From a virus: 6,142 nucleotides of DNA. Position 1 is the first letter of the stretch; every line of letters starts with the position of its first letter. Made by a program: the position numbers and the translations under genes. The notes below the pieces were generated by a model that was not told the origin of the DNA, did no database searches, and was given only the letters and a program-made list of their open reading frames with translations. The stretch covers positions 1 through 6,142 of IMG/VR virus record IMGVR_UViG_3300011982_000018. One strand, given 5' to 3'. Shown here one piece after another: positions 1 to 6,142 of the stretch.

Positions 1-26
1 AATAACGTTATAATACTTAAGAGTTA
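1..26. repeat. Terminal redundancy copy 1 (assembly overlap of a circular genome)
   Basis: aataacgttataatacttaagagtta at 1-26 is identical to 6117-6142. Confidence 0.95.
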
Positions 27-2426: not shown

Positions 2427-4445
2427 CTAAACGTTAGATACAGAAGTAGTAGAATTGTCAGTATCCTCTTCAAAAGTATCAAAAGAATTAGAAAGAGGTT
2501 TTAACGAGTTTACAAATTTAGCACTCACAACGCACTGAATAGTAAAATTATCGTCAGCACGTGATAAAGTATCATCTTCAGGAGAAGAGTTACCCGAATT
2601 TAAGAATATACGGTTAAAATAACCTAATTGAGGATATTTTGAGATATACCGCCATTCTGTCCCAGCATCAGGAATATCGTTGCGAATAACCAATAAATTT
2701 TTATCGCTATCAACAATAATTTCCTTGCGTTGTATCCACCTATCAAGATGAAAAGATAAAAAACTGTCTTTGGTAGAGTGCAAACGCATATCTCCATTTA
2801 TCAAATTTTTCTTATACTTGAATTGACTATAACGGGGTAAGAAGCCAAAAGATTTATTAGTAGTATTATCCAAATTGTCAATATTGATACCGTTATTATC
2901 AATTATTTGCGCAAGTGGGGTTAGCTCATATCCGAGTGAATCAAATTCAGCAGTGGGAAAAGTGTACCGGCTTGTCATATATAATTGTGGGTCGTCTCCT
3001 TGAAAATAATAACTAACAGGATATACAGCTGTAAAACCAATCAAAAAGCCAAATTCAGAAGCTTTAAACTTAAACGAGTTTTCACCACTAAAACCATCAC
3101 CACGCCCGCCACGCTTACCAAGTGGCTCGCCTTGTGTACCATCTTTAGTTAAAGTATCTGCACTACTGTACATGTCGTCTAACTGCACATCTGTTATAAA
3201 AGTTGCAATATCGTTAGAATCTCCAAATAACTCACTAACTTTTGCACTACCATAATGAACTCTTACCCATTCTTTAATACGGTTGCCAACTAAAGAGTTT
3301 TTGTTAAGAAAACGAGTAACTCGTTGTAATGTTTGAATATTAATTAAAGATAAATCGGTTTTATTGTCAATATTCGGAACAGATTGTTTACCGTAAGGAC
3401 TAGGAGTTTCAGCAGAAGAAGAACCCGACTTTAAACCTAGTGTAATATCCCCTGCAACATTTTCGAGCGGAGAAGTTTGATTTGCTGAAAAATAATCATC
3501 AGGAAATACATACCAAGTATTAGCCAACTCTTCAAAAAAGTTAATCAAAAGAGAATGATATGTATTATTTTCTTTAGTGTCTAAAGTGGTTAAATCCTGC
3601 AAATTGGCTTCAAATATCGTGTTAATGAGCTCAAAACAAGCAGTATTCTGCCAACCTTTAAAACGAGTAGGATAATACTTATCGAACCAAGCCTTATAAT
3701 ACGCAAACAAAGGCAATACGCTTACAGGATTCATATTACACGCATCAAGAGAGTAACCAAGACCTTTAAATATTTTAAATAAACGCTTACCAGCGTTTGA
3801 CAAACGAATATATAAAATTTTATTATCGTCCATAGTTAGCATAAAATCACAATTACTATACGATATTGTAGTATCGATAAAATCGCCACTACGTAAAGTG
3901 TACTTTGATTTAAATACATCGTATTTATCATCGAATTTCATACCTTTATTTTTGAAAAACTTCAAATATAAATCCCAACTACTAGGTATTGAATTCGTAA
4001 GTGTCATCTTTATCAAAGAATTAGGACTAATATGCAAAGCTTTTGTTTTTTCAGCTCGGTAACCTTGAAAATTTAATTTACCATAAAAAAGTCCAAGCAT
4101 AAAAACTAAGTAAGAATTCGAAATGGTAGGTACTTTTGTGGGCTTATAATTGACCAAATAAGAATGTATATCTTTACCAGCTAATAAAGCTTCAAATTGC
4201 GGAAATATTTCACGCATTGGCACAAAGCGGAAATTATTCACACATTTTATAAAACCAAAAGTAGGATTTGGCATAACGGCATTACGTACCAACTGTTTAA
4301 ACTCTCTTATAATATAAGTGTCGTTTGGTGCTAAATATTGGCTACAAATTGGTTGAAAACTTCCGAAGTCACTAGTAGTATTTATATTATAACTACCATC
4401 GTGAGCATATTTTTTTGTATGAGAACCTAAATTAAACTTCAACAT
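2427..4445 (-). CDS. VP1: Major capsid protein (VP1 / phiX174 F-like)
   Basis: 672-aa ORF, the largest in the genome, with ATG at 4445-4443. The N-terminal pattern is typical of microvirus capsid N-termini: ...TTSDFGSFQPICSQYLAPNDTY...QLVRNAVMPNPTFGF...FRFVPMREIFPQF (D-x-G-x-L-x-P, then P-x-D, then R...P...P, then FVP). The size and the VP1-VP2-VP4 gene order fit Alpavirinae-like gut microviruses. Confidence 0.9.
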   Translation of the reverse strand: MLKFNLGSHTKKYAHDGSYNINTTSDFGSFQPICSQYLAPNDTYIIREFKQLVRNAVMPNPTFGFIKCVNNFRFVPMREIFPQFEALLAGKDIHSYLVNYKPTKVPTISNSYLVFMLGLFYGKLNFQGYRAEKTKALHISPNSLIKMTLTNSIPSSWDLYLKFFKNKGMKFDDKYDVFKSKYTLRSGDFIDTTISYSNCDFMLTMDDNKILYIRLSNAGKRLFKIFKGLGYSLDACNMNPVSVLPLFAYYKAWFDKYYPTRFKGWQNTACFELINTIFEANLQDLTTLDTKENNTYHSLLINFFEELANTWYVFPDDYFSANQTSPLENVAGDITLGLKSGSSSAETPSPYGKQSVPNIDNKTDLSLINIQTLQRVTRFLNKNSLVGNRIKEWVRVHYGSAKVSELFGDSNDIATFITDVQLDDMYSSADTLTKDGTQGEPLGKRGGRGDGFSGENSFKFKASEFGFLIGFTAVYPVSYYFQGDDPQLYMTSRYTFPTAEFDSLGYELTPLAQIIDNNGINIDNLDNTTNKSFGFLPRYSQFKYKKNLINGDMRLHSTKDSFLSFHLDRWIQRKEIIVDSDKNLLVIRNDIPDAGTEWRYISKYPQLGYFNRIFLNSGNSSPEDDTLSRADDNFTIQCVVSAKFVNSLKPLSNSFDTFEEDTDNSTTSVSNV

Positions 4446-4454
4446 AATAAAAAA

Positions 4455-4727
4455 TTAAACATTAATATCTTGTGCATTCAAAACCTTTAAAGCTGAAGTA
4501 TCATCAATAGGAGTTATACCTAACACAGAGGGGTTGAGTTGTGTTAGGCTTATTCCTGCATCTAGAAGTACGTCTAACTCGTACTCTTTATATGGCGGCA
4601 ATACAGCAGGTTTATTGACATTTTTAGTAACTAATACTTTACCATTCTGCAAAGTATCTTTTAACGTAACTCTGTCGGTATTAATTCCTCCTGCAATAAC
4701 AGGAGGGGGAAGAATTTTTCCAAACAT
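4455..4727 (-). CDS. Hypothetical 90-aa protein immediately upstream of VP1. A scaffolding or minor structural role is possible but unproven.
   Basis: ATG at 4727-4725. The TAA stop at 4457-4455 lies only 9 nt before the VP1 ATG. It is on the same strand as all other genes and packed tightly with its neighbours. Pro-rich segments are present (ILPPPVIAGG, KPAVLPPYKEY). I recognise no family motif. Confidence 0.6.
   Translation of the reverse strand: MFGKILPPPVIAGGINTDRVTLKDTLQNGKVLVTKNVNKPAVLPPYKEYELDVLLDAGISLTQLNPSVLGITPIDDTSALKVLNAQDINV
4519..4548. other. 9-bp perfect inverted repeat with a 12-nt loop, embedded in the 90-aa ORF; copy 2 of a shared motif
   Basis: CCTAACACA (4519-4527) pairs with TGTGTTAGG (4540-4548); the loop is gaggggttgagt. 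It contains AACACAGAGGGGTTG-A-GTTGT, closely similar to 984-1004. Confidence 0.5.
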
Positions 4728-4728
4728 A

Positions 4729-4824
4729 CTACTTACGAATTTTAGGTTTTTTTGTGAATAAGCCTATTACAAAACTTACTACCGCAATGATAGCGTTAAT
4801 TAACTCTGGGTTTAAATGTTCCAT
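4729..4824 (-). CDS. Small 31-aa single-pass membrane protein (not in the ORF track); candidate holin-like or lysis accessory protein
   Basis: Hand translation gives MEHLNPELINAIIAVVSFVIGLFTKKPKIRK. The ATG is at 4824-4822 and the TAG at 4731-4729, 1 nt before the ATG of the 90-aa ORF (TAGTATG on the minus strand). It has an acidic N-terminus, a hydrophobic stretch of about 16-19 residues and a +5 basic tail. It is the first ORF after the 217-nt noncoding island. Confidence 0.45.
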   Translation of the reverse strand: MEHLNPELINAIIAVVSFVIGLFTKKPKIRK

Positions 4825-4921
4825 AATTCAATATATTAAAATTTATAACTAAAAAATAACTATACATGGAAATTGCCGCAGGCGCAGTATTTAGGTATCG
4901 CTTACACATTCGTTTCAGCTC

Positions 4922-4963
4922 GTGCGCAAGATGCTACATTTCATTTCGCATCAACGGGCGCAC
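4922..4963. other. Compound stem-loop inside the GC-rich noncoding island
   Basis: GTGCGC (4922-4927) pairs with GCGCAC (4958-4963). Nested inside, GATGC (4930-4934) pairs with GCATC (4948-4952), leaving a 13-nt loop. That is 11 Watson-Crick pairs with one internal loop. Confidence 0.5.
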
Positions 4964-4998
4964 ATTTTAACCGCTACGCTTTATAGTGCTATCGCTAT

Positions 4999-5015
4999 GG
5001 GGGCAGTGTGCCCCC
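4999..5015. other. Perfect 7-bp / 3-nt-loop hairpin, 26 nt downstream of the peptidase stop
   Basis: GGGGGCA-GTG-TGCCCCC. A second CCCCC run at 5020-5024 offers an alternative pairing partner. On the minus strand it is followed by ATAGCGATAGCAC, which is not a T-tract, so it is not a classical terminator. Confidence 0.5.
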
Positions 5016-5041
5016 TATACCCCCTCTTTCGCCTTACAGCA

Positions 5042-5371
5042 TTATTTAGGGTCGTACTCTATATGTACGTGGTCCTTTTCTATTACAATATCCAATATTT
5101 TATTAAAATGAAACTTAAGGAAATTAACAAATTGATTTACTTGAATATCGGTTTTATCCTTAGTTCTTACATCAATGGCTAAACCTTTATAATGCAAAGA
5201 GTTCTGCATATGTTTACCATCAGTAGTAGATGTTATAACCATATAGATTTTAAATAGTTTAAAATGAATATACGCTATAATATTAACGTACATATTCATT
5301 ACACTACATAATGTATCGGTAGGTACACCGTCCTTATATTGAACGGTGTACATAAATGATTTATTTTTCAT
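5042..5371 (-). CDS. Zinc D,D-/L,D-peptidase of the LAS / peptidase M15 type (candidate peptidoglycan hydrolase or endolysin), 109 aa from the ATG at 5371
   Basis: The motif SLHYKGLAID (S-x-H-x-x-G-x-A-x-D, i.e. H-x6-D) is encoded at 5200-5171. The motif H-V-H in DHVHIEYD is encoded at 5071-5063. Order and spacing match the Zn ligands of LAS/M15 enzymes. The track ORF begins at a GTG at 5395. The ATG at 5371-5369 overlaps the upstream ORF stop by 11 nt (ATGAAAAATAA), a typical coupled arrangement, so I prefer it. Confidence 0.7.
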   Translation of the reverse strand: MKNKSFMYTVQYKDGVPTDTLCSVMNMYVNIIAYIHFKLFKIYMVITSTTDGKHMQNSLHYKGLAIDVRTKDKTDIQVNQFVNFLKFHFNKILDIVIEKDHVHIEYDPK

Positions 5372-5630
5372 ATAAATAAGAATGATAAATAACACTTTTA
5401 AACTTAACTCGCTTAAAACAATATGATTTAACCATAGCTTTTAAGCGATTTAAATCCTTAACCTTAACAAAATCGCTATTATTTTTTGTGCAATCAATTA
5501 ACGTCATATCGTAAATATAAGCCGTCCAAATATCAAAAGAAATAGGAGATTGATAACTAACAATGTAACAACCATAACCATTTGGCATAAACCTAAAATC
5601 AGTAAGACTAATTTTAACTCTCTTTGTCAT
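5361..5630 (-). CDS. Hypothetical basic 89-aa protein, first gene after the promoter and upstream of the peptidase
   Basis: ATG at 5630-5628, 31 nt downstream of a consensus Bacteroides -7 box. It overlaps the peptidase ATG. By my count it has 15 K/R against 7 D/E. I recognise no family motif. Confidence 0.6.
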   Translation of the reverse strand: MTKRVKISLTDFRFMPNGYGCYIVSYQSPISFDIWTAYIYDMTLIDCTKNNSDFVKVKDLNRLKAMVKSYCFKRVKFKSVIYHSYLYEK

Positions 5631-5661: not shown

Positions 5662-5692
5662 CAAAGTTACAAAAAAAACAGAAACTAACAAA
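5662..5692 (-). promoter_or_regulatory. Bacteroidota-type promoter: -33 TTTG, 19-nt spacer, -7 TAACTTTG
   Basis: Minus strand has TTTG at 5692-5689, overlapping the last Rep codons and the TAG stop. A 19-nt spacer follows, then TAACTTTG at 5669-5662. This matches the TTTG-N19-21-TAnnTTTG consensus exactly. The ATG of the 89-aa ORF is 31 nt downstream. Confidence 0.6.
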
Positions 5693-6142
5693 GGTTTATA
5701 GGATATTCTTTAACGCTATTACGTTTTTTTAACTCATAAGCCTCATTATCTTTTAAAATTCTTTCTTCCTGGTCTAACTCTATCAAAGTATCTAATTTTT
5801 CAATACACTTATCAAGTTTATTAGATATATCAATATACTCAAAAGATAAAGATTTAACGTAAGAAAAATATTTTTTTAGCTTATCACATTCTAAGTATCT
5901 ACTATAAGTGTCTGATTGCAAAGCAATATAACGCTTTATATTTTCGATATTAAAAGCATCGAAAAAATTATTTACAAAAGACATAACATTAAAACTATAT
6001 ATTCTAACATATTGACGATATTTTGCCAAAATGCTCGCTAATTTATATATATCATTATTTAAAATGAAACATTTTGATATATAATTAAACTCGCTATCAT
6101 TTGCAAAATGGTTTGCAATAACGTTATAATACTTAAGAGTTA
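5685..6142 (-). CDS. VP4: C-terminal part of the same Rep (VP4). Bases 6117-6142 duplicate 1-26, and 6116-5685 add 143 codons plus a TAG stop.
   Basis: Reading the minus strand from 6116 in the frame set by codon 3..1 gives ANHFANDSEFNYISKCFILNNDIYKLASI with no stop. This runs in frame into the track ORF 5685..6029. The 'M' start of that ORF is really a TTG (Leu) codon at 6029-6027. Total Rep is 314+29+114 = 457 aa. Confidence 0.85.
   Translation of the reverse strand, partial: TLKYYNVIANHFANDSEFNYISKCFILNNDIYKLASILAKYRQYVRIYSFNVMSFVNNFFDAFNIENIKRYIALQSDTYSRYLECDKLKKYFSYVKSLSFEYIDISNKLDKCIEKLDTLIELDQEERILKDNEAYELKKRNSVKEYPINLC
6117..6142. repeat. Terminal redundancy copy 2
   Basis: Exact 26/26 match to 1-26. 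The Rep reading frame is preserved across the join. Confidence 0.95.

What the first reader, a model, noticed from the sequence alone, without database searches (positions are those of the whole stretch)
5042..5371. A microvirus carrying its own LAS/M15-type zinc peptidase (candidate endolysin)
The 109-117 aa ORF contains S-L-H-Y-K-G-L-A-I-D (H-x6-D) and, 33 residues later, H-V-H. These are the two signature motifs that supply the Zn ligands in LAS enzymes (D-Ala-D-Ala metallopeptidases, M15 phage L-Ala-D-Glu peptidases, hedgehog fold). Well-studied microviruses do not use a muralytic enzyme: phiX174 lyses with protein E, which inhibits MraY, and no lysis gene is known for gokushoviruses. A dedicated cell-wall hydrolase in a 6.1-kb ssDNA genome would therefore mean a different lysis or entry strategy. 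I recall M15-like domains being noted in a few metagenomic microviruses, but none has been characterised as far as I know. The protein has no obvious signal peptide, so it would need a membrane-permeabilising partner to reach the wall.
Basis: partly seen in the sequence, partly recalled or inferred. Interest (0 to 1): 0.75.

Follow-up and report, generated by a model that had tools for sequence, protein, structure and literature searches.

The report
Microvirus cell-wall peptidase with tiny membrane partner
This small circular ssDNA phage genome encodes a 109-residue zinc peptidase of the LAS (hedgehog/DD-peptidase) fold, and a conserved 31-residue membrane peptide gene lies just downstream; together they look like a minimal endolysin-plus-holin lysis cassette, a likely but untested lysis route of a kind already reported for other microviruses.

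Summary
The minus-strand ORF 5042-5371 (ATG start, 109 aa) carries S-L-H60-x6-D67 and H101-V-H103. These residues are invariant across 37 homologues. A family profile matches Sonic hedgehog N-domains in the PDB (E 1e-8), aligning them with the Zn ligands H141/D148/H183. The AlphaFold model (pLDDT 92) matches hedgehog and LAS peptidase structures (TM about 0.72).

The candidate-endolysin reading is supported but not new. M15_3 peptidases were reported in microviruses in 2012, and a microviral peptidoglycan hydrolase was shown active in 2025. This protein is a separate LAS lineage. It scores below threshold on Pfam M15_3, borderline on HH_signal, and has no PHROG or NCBIfam match. The family holds about 6,200 clusters at 50% identity, mostly phage-borne.

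It is under purifying selection. It stays next to the peptidase in lineages with different gene orders. In 50,697 phage records, its credible matches fall only in peptidase-carrying microviruses. Homologues in tailed phages sit beside holin-like genes. Relatives are Prevotella prophages. Function is inferred, not tested.

The parts
5042..5371 (-). Gene for a 109-aa LAS-fold zinc peptidase (12.9 kDa, pI 8.9, no signal peptide or TM segment). Other possible starts: GTG 5395 and ATG 5353.
   Evidence: ORF. There are 36 homologues with invariant catalytic residues. Pfam HH_signal scores 23.2 bits (cut-off 22.1) and Peptidase_M15_3 scores 14.9 (cut-off 23.2). The family profile hits Shh N-domains in the PDB at E 1e-8. 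The AF2 model has pLDDT 92. Foldseek gives TM 0.72 to Shh/Ihh/Dhh and also hits VldE, the S. albus DD-peptidase and MepA. pI and mass are.
5171..5200 (-). Codons for S58-L-H60-Y-K-G-L-A-I-D67, the H-x6-D motif with the first two predicted Zn ligands.
   Evidence: Read directly from the sequence. Invariant in alignment A1. Aligned to Shh SLH141YEGRAVD148. The Shh ligand identities are from PMC6027127.
5057..5080 (-). Codons for E98-K-D-H101-V-H103-I-E105. The H-x-H motif gives the predicted catalytic His and third Zn ligand. E98 is nearly invariant and is a candidate general base.
   Evidence: Sequence. H101, H103 and E105 are invariant and E98 is at least 90% conserved. H101-V-H103 aligns to Shh H181-I-H183. 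E98 aligns one position away from Shh E177.
4729..4824 (-). Gene for a 31-aa single-pass membrane miniprotein, MEHLNPELINAIIAVVSFVIGLFTKKPKIRK (acidic N-end, one TM helix, basic tail). It is the candidate holin-like partner. Its stop codon lies 1 nt before the start of the 90-aa ORF.
   Evidence: Found. Homologues lie just downstream of the peptidase gene in the 17 microvirus or prophage loci where it was found, out of 20 examined (none seen in L085 or L121; L120 has a divergent 52-aa relative further downstream). Purifying selection: L001 vs L006 show 10 synonymous and 1 non-synonymous change; window vs L001 gives pS 0.89, pN 0.24. tblastn hits below E 0.05 fall in 12 phage records, all among the 14 that carry the peptidase (Fisher p 1.5e-46). 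The 58-aa variants carry a Sec-signal-like N-extension, implying N-out/C-in topology. Some TPA records name it 'holin'.
4825..5041 (-). 217-nt spacer between the two genes. It is richer in G+C (42%) than the genome (32%) and holds a conserved hairpin at 4999-5015. Its role is unknown; it may be a terminator, an origin, or neither.
   Evidence: The hairpin is GGGGGCA-CAC-TGCCCCC here and GGGGGCT-CAC-AGCCCCC in L001 and L006, which is one compensatory pair. The fold of the whole spacer is not significant (z -0.77).

Best explanation
ORF 5042-5371 encodes a minimal, single-domain Zn2+ metallopeptidase of the LAS (lysostaphin / D-Ala-D-Ala peptidase / Sonic hedgehog) superfamily. H60, D67 and H103 hold the zinc. 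H101, with E98 and H54, completes the catalytic site.

I propose that it is made late in infection and accumulates folded in the cytoplasm, because it has no export signal. The 31-aa membrane miniprotein encoded at 4729-4824 (N-out, C-in) would then oligomerise and breach the inner membrane. The peptidase would reach the peptidoglycan and cut its peptide stems or cross-links, so the Gram-negative host, probably an oral Prevotella-like Bacteroidota, bursts. In short, it is a two-gene endolysin plus holin-like cassette carried by a 6.1-kb ssDNA phage.

Shown here:
- the gene, its conserved motifs, its superfamily and its predicted fold;
- that the miniprotein gene is real and under selection;
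- the strict linkage of the two genes;
- the lysis-cassette context of tailed-phage homologues.

Inferred:
- zinc binding and peptidoglycan hydrolysis;
- which bond is cut;
- hole formation by the miniprotein;
- timing of expression;
- how the outer membrane is overcome.
For: Enzyme identity:
- The invariant residues include H-x6-D and H-x-H.
- Pfam HH_signal is just above its cut-off. 35 of 37 family members match HH_signal and 23 of 37 match M15_3 at E up to 0.1.
- The profile hits Shh at E 1e-8 with the ligands aligned.
- The confident model has TM about 0.72 to hedgehog N-domains. It also hits the LAS peptidases VldE, S. albus DD-peptidase and MepA, and viral M15A / murein endopeptidase domains.

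Site of action outside the cytoplasm:
- Some family members carry N-terminal TM, signal or lipobox segments.
- Others are C-terminal modules after motifs that resemble the end of an RHS core.

Lysis role:
- In tailed-phage contigs the gene follows the tail genes. It is preceded or followed by small TM proteins with charged tails, for example the 70-aa ORF at L003 7788-8000.
- 21 of 57 such genes have a directly adjacent TM ORF, against 27 of 257 control ORFs (p 5e-6).

Partner gene:
- It is conserved, selected, and always adjacent in two microvirus lineages that have different gene orders.
- Its credible matches occur only in peptidase-carrying phage records.
- Non-homologous tiny TM ORFs also follow the peptidase in a third lineage (L028, L056) and in microviruses with canonical M15_3 (L122, L123).

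Host: relatives are prophages in Prevotella pallens and P. bivia genomes.
Against: - There is no biochemical evidence of any kind.
- The Pfam support is marginal (23.2 bits against 22.1).
- The miniprotein is far smaller than characterised holins. It reaches no holin family threshold: Phage_holin_10 scores 19.7 against 27, and the Hol_Tox and phrog_1350 matches are weaker still.
- Whether a 31-aa single-pass peptide can let a 13-kDa folded enzyme through is unknown.
- In this genome 217 nt and a hairpin separate the two genes, against about 30 nt in the Prevotella-prophage lineage.
- Gokushovirus-like carriers (L019, L121) and L085 show no clear TM partner.
- No spanin-like function is evident.
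Confidence: 0.6

Rival explanations
1. The peptidase acts at entry rather than exit. It would be carried in or on the virion and would open the peptidoglycan locally so that the pilot protein can deliver the ssDNA.
For: The same domain occurs at the C-terminus of very large proteins: P0150 (891 aa), P0155 (746 aa), P0159 (1075 aa) and an 870-aa ORF in L026. BFVD fold hits include tape-measure and large multi-domain phage proteins. Ebor Gp7 was detected in trace amounts in virions (PMC11980548).
Against: Here it is a free-standing 109-aa protein with no virion-attachment module. It is genetically linked to a membrane miniprotein. In tailed phages the stand-alone form lies next to holin-like genes.
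Confidence: 0.12
2. The two genes are linked but the miniprotein is not a holin. It could itself be a single-gene lysis protein (an amurin-like inhibitor of wall synthesis, as phiX174 E is), a membrane anchor or regulator of the peptidase, or a superinfection-exclusion factor. The peptidase would then reach the wall by another route.
For: Tiny single-TM lysis proteins are known in small phages (from my own knowledge: phiX174 E, MS2 L, AP205 L). The miniprotein reaches no holin family threshold. Some gokushovirus-like carriers of the peptidase have no obvious TM partner.
Against: The credible matches are restricted to peptidase-carrying genomes, and adjacency is kept across rearranged genomes. 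Analogous but non-homologous TM miniproteins sit next to peptidases in other lineages, which argues for a shared, peptidase-dependent role. The peptidase has no export signal.
Confidence: 0.18
3. The protein is a non-catalytic LAS-fold module, a binding or regulatory pseudo-enzyme, as has been argued for some hedgehog proteins.
For: Its nearest sequence and structure matches are hedgehog signalling domains, whose peptidase activity is debated (PMC6027127).
Against: All Zn ligands and the catalytic His/Glu positions are invariant or nearly so, across the 37-sequence alignment and the wider family sample. By contrast, Drosophila Hh has lost them (PMC6027127). The family context is phage lysis cassettes and exported or toxin-like proteins.
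Confidence: 0.04

Closest known systems
Peptidase_M15_3 (PF08291) genes of gut Alpavirinae/Gokushovirinae and other microviruses (Roux 2012, PMC3394797; Kirchberger 2022, PMC9239249; e.g. MG945328, MG945336)
   Same: An accessory gene in a microvirus genome, belonging to the LAS superfamily, with S-x-H-x-x-G-x-A-x-D and a C-terminal His motif. It was proposed to be a horizontally acquired endolysin. These genes too are followed by a tiny conserved TM ORF.
   Different: It is a different family. Those proteins are about 131 aa and score 59 bits on PF08291. This one is 109 aa and scores 15 bits on PF08291, with its best match to HH_signal. Profile comparison with MG945328 is not significant (E 0.24).
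Hedgehog N-terminal signalling domain and bacterial Hh-like DD-peptidases (PF01085; Roelink 2018, PMC6027127)
   Same: This is the best sequence and structure match. SLHY-G-A-D and H-I-H align with Shh H141, D148 and H183.
   Different: It covers only the C-terminal two-thirds of the 161-position model. It lacks the N-terminal part, which in Shh carries the Ca2+ site (my own knowledge). It also lacks any Hint or autoprocessing domain. It is phage-borne.
LAS-fold phage endolysins: T5 endolysin and the Ply500/Ply118 catalytic domains (L-Ala-D-Glu peptidases, M15C/VanY) and the M15A endolysin of Burkholderia phage ST79 (PMC5025407)
   Same: Small Zn peptidases with H-x6-D...H-x-H that serve as endolysins and work with holins. 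This is the mechanism proposed here.
   Different: No significant direct sequence match was found in PDB searches. This protein is shorter, and its bond specificity is unknown. What I say about T5 and Ply500 rests on my own knowledge and on the citation in PMC3394797.
VldE C-terminal domain of Streptococcus pneumoniae (PDB 9flk), Streptomyces albus G DD-peptidase (1lbu), E. coli MepA (1u10)
   Same: LAS-fold peptidoglycan peptidases recovered by fold search.
   Different: The matches are weaker than to hedgehog (TM 0.47-0.58). These are cellular enzymes with extra domains.
Microvirus Ebor Gp7 (PMC11980548)
   Same: A microvirus-encoded peptidoglycan hydrolase. The same genome also encodes a 45-aa predicted membrane protein.
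   Different: Gp7 is 146 aa. Its best HHpred match was PDB 6SSC_A, an entry that is not among my LAS structure hits, so it is probably a different enzyme type. It has been verified experimentally, whereas this protein has not.
Holin-endolysin cassettes of tailed phages, and tiny single-gene lysis proteins of small phages
   Same: A small membrane protein with a charged tail is encoded next to a muralytic enzyme that has no signal sequence.
   Different: At 31 aa with one TM helix, the partner is much smaller than characterised holins. It reaches no holin family threshold. The order here is enzyme first, then membrane protein.

Membership tests
LAS zinc peptidase superfamily (MEROPS clan MD / Pfam clan Peptidase_MD) | H-x(3-6)-D and H-x-H motifs that supply the Zn ligands | tested here: met
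   H60-x6-D67 and H101-V-H103 are present. They are invariant in 37 homologues and present together in 173 of the 181 family proteins checked.
LAS zinc peptidase superfamily (MEROPS clan MD / Pfam clan Peptidase_MD) | Significant profile similarity to a member family | tested here: met
   The family profile hits Shh, Ihh and Dhh N-domains at E 1e-8 to 1e-7 over profile positions 35-113. The single sequence scores 23.2 bits on HH_signal against a cut-off of 22.1, which is marginal.
LAS zinc peptidase superfamily (MEROPS clan MD / Pfam clan Peptidase_MD) | Hedgehog/DD-peptidase fold | tested here: met
   AF2 gives pLDDT 92 and pTM 0.84. Foldseek reports probability 1.0 and TM about 0.72 to hedgehog N-domains, and also hits VldE, 1lbu and MepA. 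Viral M15A domains are hit.
LAS zinc peptidase superfamily (MEROPS clan MD / Pfam clan Peptidase_MD) | The three ligands converge on one metal site; the protein binds Zn2+ and hydrolyses a peptide bond | not testable with these tools
Only the alignment of the ligands onto Shh H141, D148 and H183 supports this.
Pfam Peptidase_M15_3 (PF08291), the family of previously reported microviral peptidases | Score at or above the gathering threshold (23.2 bits) | tested here: not met
   Scores are 14.9-15.1 bits. The best E-value among the 37 family members is 7e-4. True microviral M15_3 proteins score about 59 bits.
Hedgehog protein (PF01085 N-domain plus Hint domain) | A full-length N-terminal signalling domain and a C-terminal autoprocessing domain | tested here: not met
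   The single-sequence match covers only model positions 98-132 of 161. The profile match covers the C-terminal two-thirds. The protein ends at residue 109, so there is no Hint domain.
Phage endolysin | A muralytic catalytic domain encoded in a lysis cassette next to a membrane-disrupting protein | tested here: met
   An adjacent conserved TM miniprotein is found in microviruses. Tailed-phage homologues are enriched for adjacent TM ORFs (37% against 11%, p 5e-6), with textbook holin-like neighbours.
Phage endolysin | Demonstrated peptidoglycan degradation and a requirement for lysis | not testable with these tools
   This needs a zymogram or muropeptide analysis, plus genetics.
Holin (for the 31-aa partner at 4729-4824) | A small membrane protein with at least one TM helix and a charged, hydrophilic C-terminus, encoded beside the endolysin gene | tested here: met
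   The sequence and hydropathy fit. Adjacency and co-occurrence hold. N-out/C-in topology is implied by the signal-peptide-bearing 58-aa variants.
Holin (for the 31-aa partner at 4729-4824) | Membership of a described holin family | tested here: not met
   The best match is Phage_holin_10, at 19.7 bits against a cut-off of 27, and only for the 58-aa variant. Hol_Tox has E 0.14 and phrog_1350 has E 0.06. The only naming is the automatic label 'MAG TPA: holin [Microviridae sp.]'.
Holin (for the 31-aa partner at 4729-4824) | Timed, lethal permeabilisation of the membrane that releases the endolysin | not testable with these tools
   This needs expression or complementation experiments.

The most novel reading that the evidence does not exclude
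Peptidase-carrying microviruses in general, including the Prevotella and other Bacteroidota lineages whose lysis mechanism is unknown, may lyse with a two-gene cassette. A 28-58-aa single-pass membrane miniprotein would release a signal-less LAS peptidase of about 100 aa. These miniproteins would be the smallest holin-like proteins known. They would have been recruited at least three times from unrelated sequences (the window/Prevotella type, the L028/L056 type, and the M15_3-associated type). That would make small ssDNA phages users of a miniature holin-endolysin system rather than of phiX174-type single-gene lysis.
Probability: 0.45. Interest if true: 0.6.

Novelty: new member of a known kind. 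Interest (0 to 1): 0.4.

Why it matters
Outside phiX174-like phages, how microviruses lyse their hosts is largely unknown, although they are abundant in the human mouth and gut.

This locus gives a concrete two-gene hypothesis that can be tested in Prevotella, where related prophages exist.

It also defines a large phage LAS peptidase family (about 6,200 clusters at 50% identity) that PHROGs and NCBIfam miss. Public records name its members 'hypothetical protein' or, misleadingly, 'Sonic hedgehog protein'.

The partner miniprotein is left unannotated in most microvirus records. In Prevotella genomes it is misnamed 'LPXTG cell wall anchor'.

A 109-aa enzyme plus a 31-aa membrane peptide would be one of the smallest lysis systems known, and a compact source of Bacteroidota-directed lysins.

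The general idea of microvirus-encoded peptidase endolysins is already published, so the advance is incremental.

Tried and rejected
- PHROGs and NCBIfam gave no match for the peptidase or for typical family members.
- Profile comparison with a canonical microviral M15_3 protein was not significant (E 0.24), so I do not file this protein under M15_3.
The second scan found 31 loci in diverse MAGs but gave no host for this lineage.
- Rfam found nothing credible in the window.
- The 217-nt spacer does not fold better than shuffled sequence (z -0.77). Promoter and terminator scans were at background level.
- The '114-aa ORF' at 5685-6029 is not a separate gene. It is the C-terminal part of the 457-aa Rep, which wraps around the circle.
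- Other hydrophobic ORFs were considered as membrane partners: 5504-5581 (25 aa, overprinted on the 89-aa ORF) and 2357-2482 (41 aa, TTG start). I rejected 5504-5581 because its start codon and hydrophobic character are not conserved in L001 and L005. I did not test 2357-2482 for conservation. Such ORFs are common in this AT-rich genome.
- The neighbouring 89-aa and 90-aa ORFs have no TM segment and no family match.
- MG945906 'similar to peptidase' (L002) showed no peptidase domain.
- A weak tblastn match of the miniprotein to a Bacillus phage holin (E 2) is not evidence.
- The large fusion proteins (P0062, P0155, P0159) gave no Pfam domains that would identify their N-terminal parts.

Full report
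**The window**

The 6142-nt window has a 26-nt terminal direct repeat, so it is a circularly assembled 6116-nt genome. All genes lie on the minus strand.
- The 672-aa ORF at 2427-4445 is a microvirus major capsid protein (PHROG 514, E 7e-52; Pfam Phage_F).
- The 427-aa ORF at 1087-2370 corresponds to the ORF annotated 'DNA pilot protein' at the same position in the closest GenBank relative, Microvirus D_HF3_26 (OR148990, human saliva; capsid 87% identical).
- Once the redundancy is removed, the replication protein is 457 aa and runs from 942 across the junction to 5685. The '114-aa ORF' at 5685-6029 is therefore its C-terminal part.
- The gene order is MCP, pilot, Rep, 89-aa ORF, the ORF of interest, a 217-nt spacer, a 31-aa ORF, a 90-aa ORF, then MCP again.

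**Checking the observation**

The ORF exists at 5042-5395 (GTG start) or 5042-5371 (ATG start, 109 aa). The ATG is the start shared by the close homologues.

A search of 5.8 billion proteins returned 36 homologues. In their alignment, T47, H54, S58, L59, H60, Y61, A65, D67, R69, H101, H103 and E105 are invariant, and E98 is nearly so.

**What the protein is**

- The single sequence scores just above threshold on Pfam HH_signal (23.2 bits, cut-off 22.1) and below threshold on Peptidase_M15_3 (14.9, cut-off 23.2).
- At E up to 0.1, 35 of 37 family members match HH_signal and 23 of 37 match M15_3.
- A profile of the family hits Sonic, Indian and Desert hedgehog N-domains in the PDB at E 1e-8 to 1e-7. 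SLHY-G-A-D aligns with SLH141YEGRAVD148, and H-I-H aligns with H181-I-H183. These Shh residues are its Zn ligands (PMC6027127).
- The AlphaFold2 model built on the alignment is confident (pLDDT 92, pTM 0.84).
- Foldseek against the PDB returns hedgehog N-domains (probability 1.0, TM about 0.72). These are followed by the LAS peptidoglycan peptidases VldE, Streptomyces albus DD-peptidase and MepA.
- Against viral models the top hit is the same family in another microvirus. That record is automatically named 'Sonic hedgehog protein...' (Microviridae sp. ctoGr7). M15A, murein-endopeptidase and tape-measure-borne domains follow.

The protein is therefore a minimal LAS-fold zinc peptidase with a complete catalytic signature.

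**Size and standing of the family**

An exhaustive profile search finds 6,238 representatives (clusters at 50% identity) at E up to 1e-3, and 4,218 at E up to 1e-10. Most are about 100 aa. PHROGs and NCBIfam have no model for the family.

Of the 181 family proteins held, 173 keep both motifs. Some carry N-terminal TM, signal or lipobox segments. Some are C-terminal modules after motifs that resemble the end of an RHS core, or sit at the end of proteins of 550-1075 aa. This pattern points to an extracytoplasmic target.

In IMG/VR, 228 relatives were found, on both microvirus-size and tailed-phage-size contigs.

**Relation to what is known**

- Roux et al. 2012 reported Peptidase_M15_3 genes in 11 human-associated microviruses and proposed an endolysin role (PMC3394797).
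- Kirchberger et al. 2022 list peptidases as recurrent lysis-associated accessory genes of microviruses (PMC9239249).
- Most Occultatumvirinae encode an M15 metallopeptidase (PMC11499846).
- Purified Gp7 of microvirus Ebor degrades peptidoglycan (PMC11980548).

The present protein is nevertheless a different lineage. The microviral peptidases of MG945328 and MG945336 score about 59 bits on PF08291. Profile comparison of MG945328 with this family is not significant (E 0.24). In GenBank the 14 microvirus records that carry this family annotate it as 'hypothetical protein' or not at all.

**The partner gene**

The spacer downstream of the peptidase gene contains an ATG-initiated 31-codon ORF at 4729-4824. 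It encodes MEHLNPELINAIIAVVSFVIGLFTKKPKIRK: an acidic N-end, one transmembrane helix and a basic tail.

A homologous ORF lies just downstream of the peptidase gene in 17 of the 20 microvirus or prophage loci examined. None was seen in L085 or L121, and L120 carries a divergent 52-aa relative further downstream. Two lineages with different gene orders both have it:
- this lineage: Rep, 89 aa, peptidase, TM ORF, 90 aa, MCP, pilot;
- the other lineage: peptidase, TM ORF, Rep, MCP, 151-153 aa ORF, pilot.

The shared core is PE..N....F..GLF(T/I)(K/N)P followed by basic residues.

It is a real gene. L001 and L006 differ by 10 synonymous and 1 non-synonymous change. The window against L001 gives pS 0.89 and pN 0.24.

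The 58-aa variants put a Sec-signal-like segment in front of the same core, which implies N-out/C-in topology.

In 50,697 phage records, tblastn finds the peptide at E below 0.05 in 12 records. All 12 are microviruses, all are among the 14 that encode the peptidase, and the hit is always just downstream of it (Fisher p 1.5e-46). The only other matches are four Bacillus phage records at E 2-9, which I treat as noise.

A third microvirus lineage (L028, L056) has a non-homologous 28-31-aa TM ORF after the peptidase gene. The canonical-M15_3 microviruses MG945328 and MG945336 have a conserved TM ORF overlapping the 3' end of their peptidase gene.

**Context in tailed phages**

The stand-alone peptidase follows the tail genes there and is flanked by small TM proteins with charged tails. 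Examples are the 70-aa ORF directly upstream in L003, and a holin-like ORF plus a lipobox ORF in L004. Of 57 distinct genes, 21 have a directly adjacent same-strand TM ORF, against 27 of 257 control ORFs (odds ratio 5, p 5e-6).

**Names and hosts**

The miniprotein is in the large protein database. Two TPA records call it 'holin [Microviridae sp.]'. PGAP calls the 34-aa form 'LPXTG cell wall anchor domain-containing protein [Prevotella pallens]'. The 58-aa form is a hypothetical protein of Prevotella bivia.

The LPXTG name is a false positive of TIGR01167 (16.4 bits against a cut-off of 15.9).

These forms occur on contigs of up to 362 kb. L124 shows a complete microvirus prophage, beginning with peptidase and TM ORF, inside a 146-kb bacterial contig. 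The sister lineage therefore infects Prevotella. The window's own lineage is seen only on contigs of 6.2 kb or less, so its host is inferred to be a similar oral Bacteroidota.

The miniprotein reaches no holin family threshold: Phage_holin_10 scores 19.7 against 27, and the other hints are weaker.

**Mechanism**

The best-supported reading is a two-gene lysis cassette. The signal-less peptidase accumulates in the cytoplasm. The miniprotein permeabilises the inner membrane. The peptidase then cuts peptidoglycan peptides.

The steps shown here are gene reality, superfamily and fold, conservation of catalytic residues, linkage of the two genes, and lysis-cassette context. The inferred steps are zinc binding, muralytic activity, bond specificity, hole formation, timing, and how the outer membrane is breached.

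Three rivals remain:
- a virion-borne entry enzyme, suggested by fusions of the domain to large proteins;
- a miniprotein with a different role, such as an amurin, an anchor or an exclusion factor;
- a non-catalytic module, which the invariant catalytic residues make unlikely.

**Verdict**

The finding is real and its interpretation is essentially right. The kind is known, so I rate it a new member of a known kind. Two things are worth recording: this is a distinct, poorly annotated hedgehog-like LAS family, and it travels with a conserved membrane miniprotein that is mostly unannotated. I score interest at 0.4.

Noticed in passing
window 1-26 and 6117-6142; 1-942 plus 5685-6116 (-): A 26-nt terminal direct repeat shows that the contig is a circular 6116-nt genome. 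The replication protein (457 aa) wraps across the junction, so the apparent 114-aa ORF at 5685-6029 is its C-terminal part.
   Followed up: yes
window 4999-5015 (within spacer 4825-5041): A G+C-rich hairpin, GGGGGCA-CAC-TGCCCCC, lies 27 nt after the peptidase stop codon. It is conserved in L001 and L006 as GGGGGCT-CAC-AGCCCCC, which is one compensatory base-pair change. It could be a terminator, a replication or packaging signal, or neither. The spacer as a whole does not fold significantly.
   Followed up: partly
L122 (MG945328) 5353-5493; L123 (MG945336) 5679-5819: Microviruses with a canonical Peptidase_M15_3 gene also have a conserved small TM ORF (core ..TKEQLNKISNALCALISAVCAALSYFFS) overlapping the 3' end of the peptidase gene. 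This may be part of the 700-nt recombinant block noted by Kirchberger 2022.
   Followed up: partly
L028 4269-4364; L056 2409-2495; L043 about 4627-4716: Other microvirus lineages that carry this peptidase family have different tiny TM ORFs next to it: MAERPRARINWKALLLEVLKVVIGFTAGTQV, MKKVNWIELAVKVVALIASAIVGHNINI, and possibly MSFLVDNWDGIMTILNAIGLLLVAHKKKGQ upstream in L043. Gokushovirus-like L019 and L121 show none.
   Followed up: partly
Public records for relatives (WP_311147916.1, DAK63207.1, DAX91796.1, UniProt A0A8S5SY19): Annotation is inconsistent. PGAP names the miniprotein 'LPXTG cell wall anchor domain-containing protein' in Gram-negative Prevotella pallens, which is a TIGR01167 false positive (16.4 bits against 15.9). 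Some TPA records name it 'holin'. One microvirus TPA record names the peptidase 'Sonic hedgehog protein...'.
   Followed up: yes
L124 6618-12330; also L008, L011, L014: Complete microvirus prophages (peptidase, TM ORF, Rep, MCP, 153-aa ORF, pilot) sit inside long bacterial contigs, next to housekeeping genes. Identical miniproteins are recorded from Prevotella bivia and P. pallens.
   Followed up: partly
family members P0089, P0091, P0125, P0094, P0149, P0150, P0155, P0159: The same LAS domain is found after motifs that resemble the end of an RHS core (e.g. ..YDPETKRFTQEDP..). It also follows lipoprotein signals, and it sits at the C-terminus of proteins of 750-1075 aa. This suggests use as a secreted toxin or tail-associated module. 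Pfam did not identify the N-terminal parts.
   Followed up: partly
window 5361-5630 (-) and 4455-4727 (-): The 89-aa and 90-aa ORFs that flank the cassette are conserved in the close relatives L001 and L005 (the 90-aa ORF also in L006). They have no TM segment and no family match, so their function is unknown.
   Followed up: no
window 5504-5581 (-): A 25-aa very hydrophobic ORF (MVMVVTLLVINLLFLLIFGRLIFTI) is overprinted on the 89-aa ORF. The frame stays open in L001 and L005, but the start codon and the hydrophobicity are not conserved, so it is probably a by-product of composition.
   Followed up: yes
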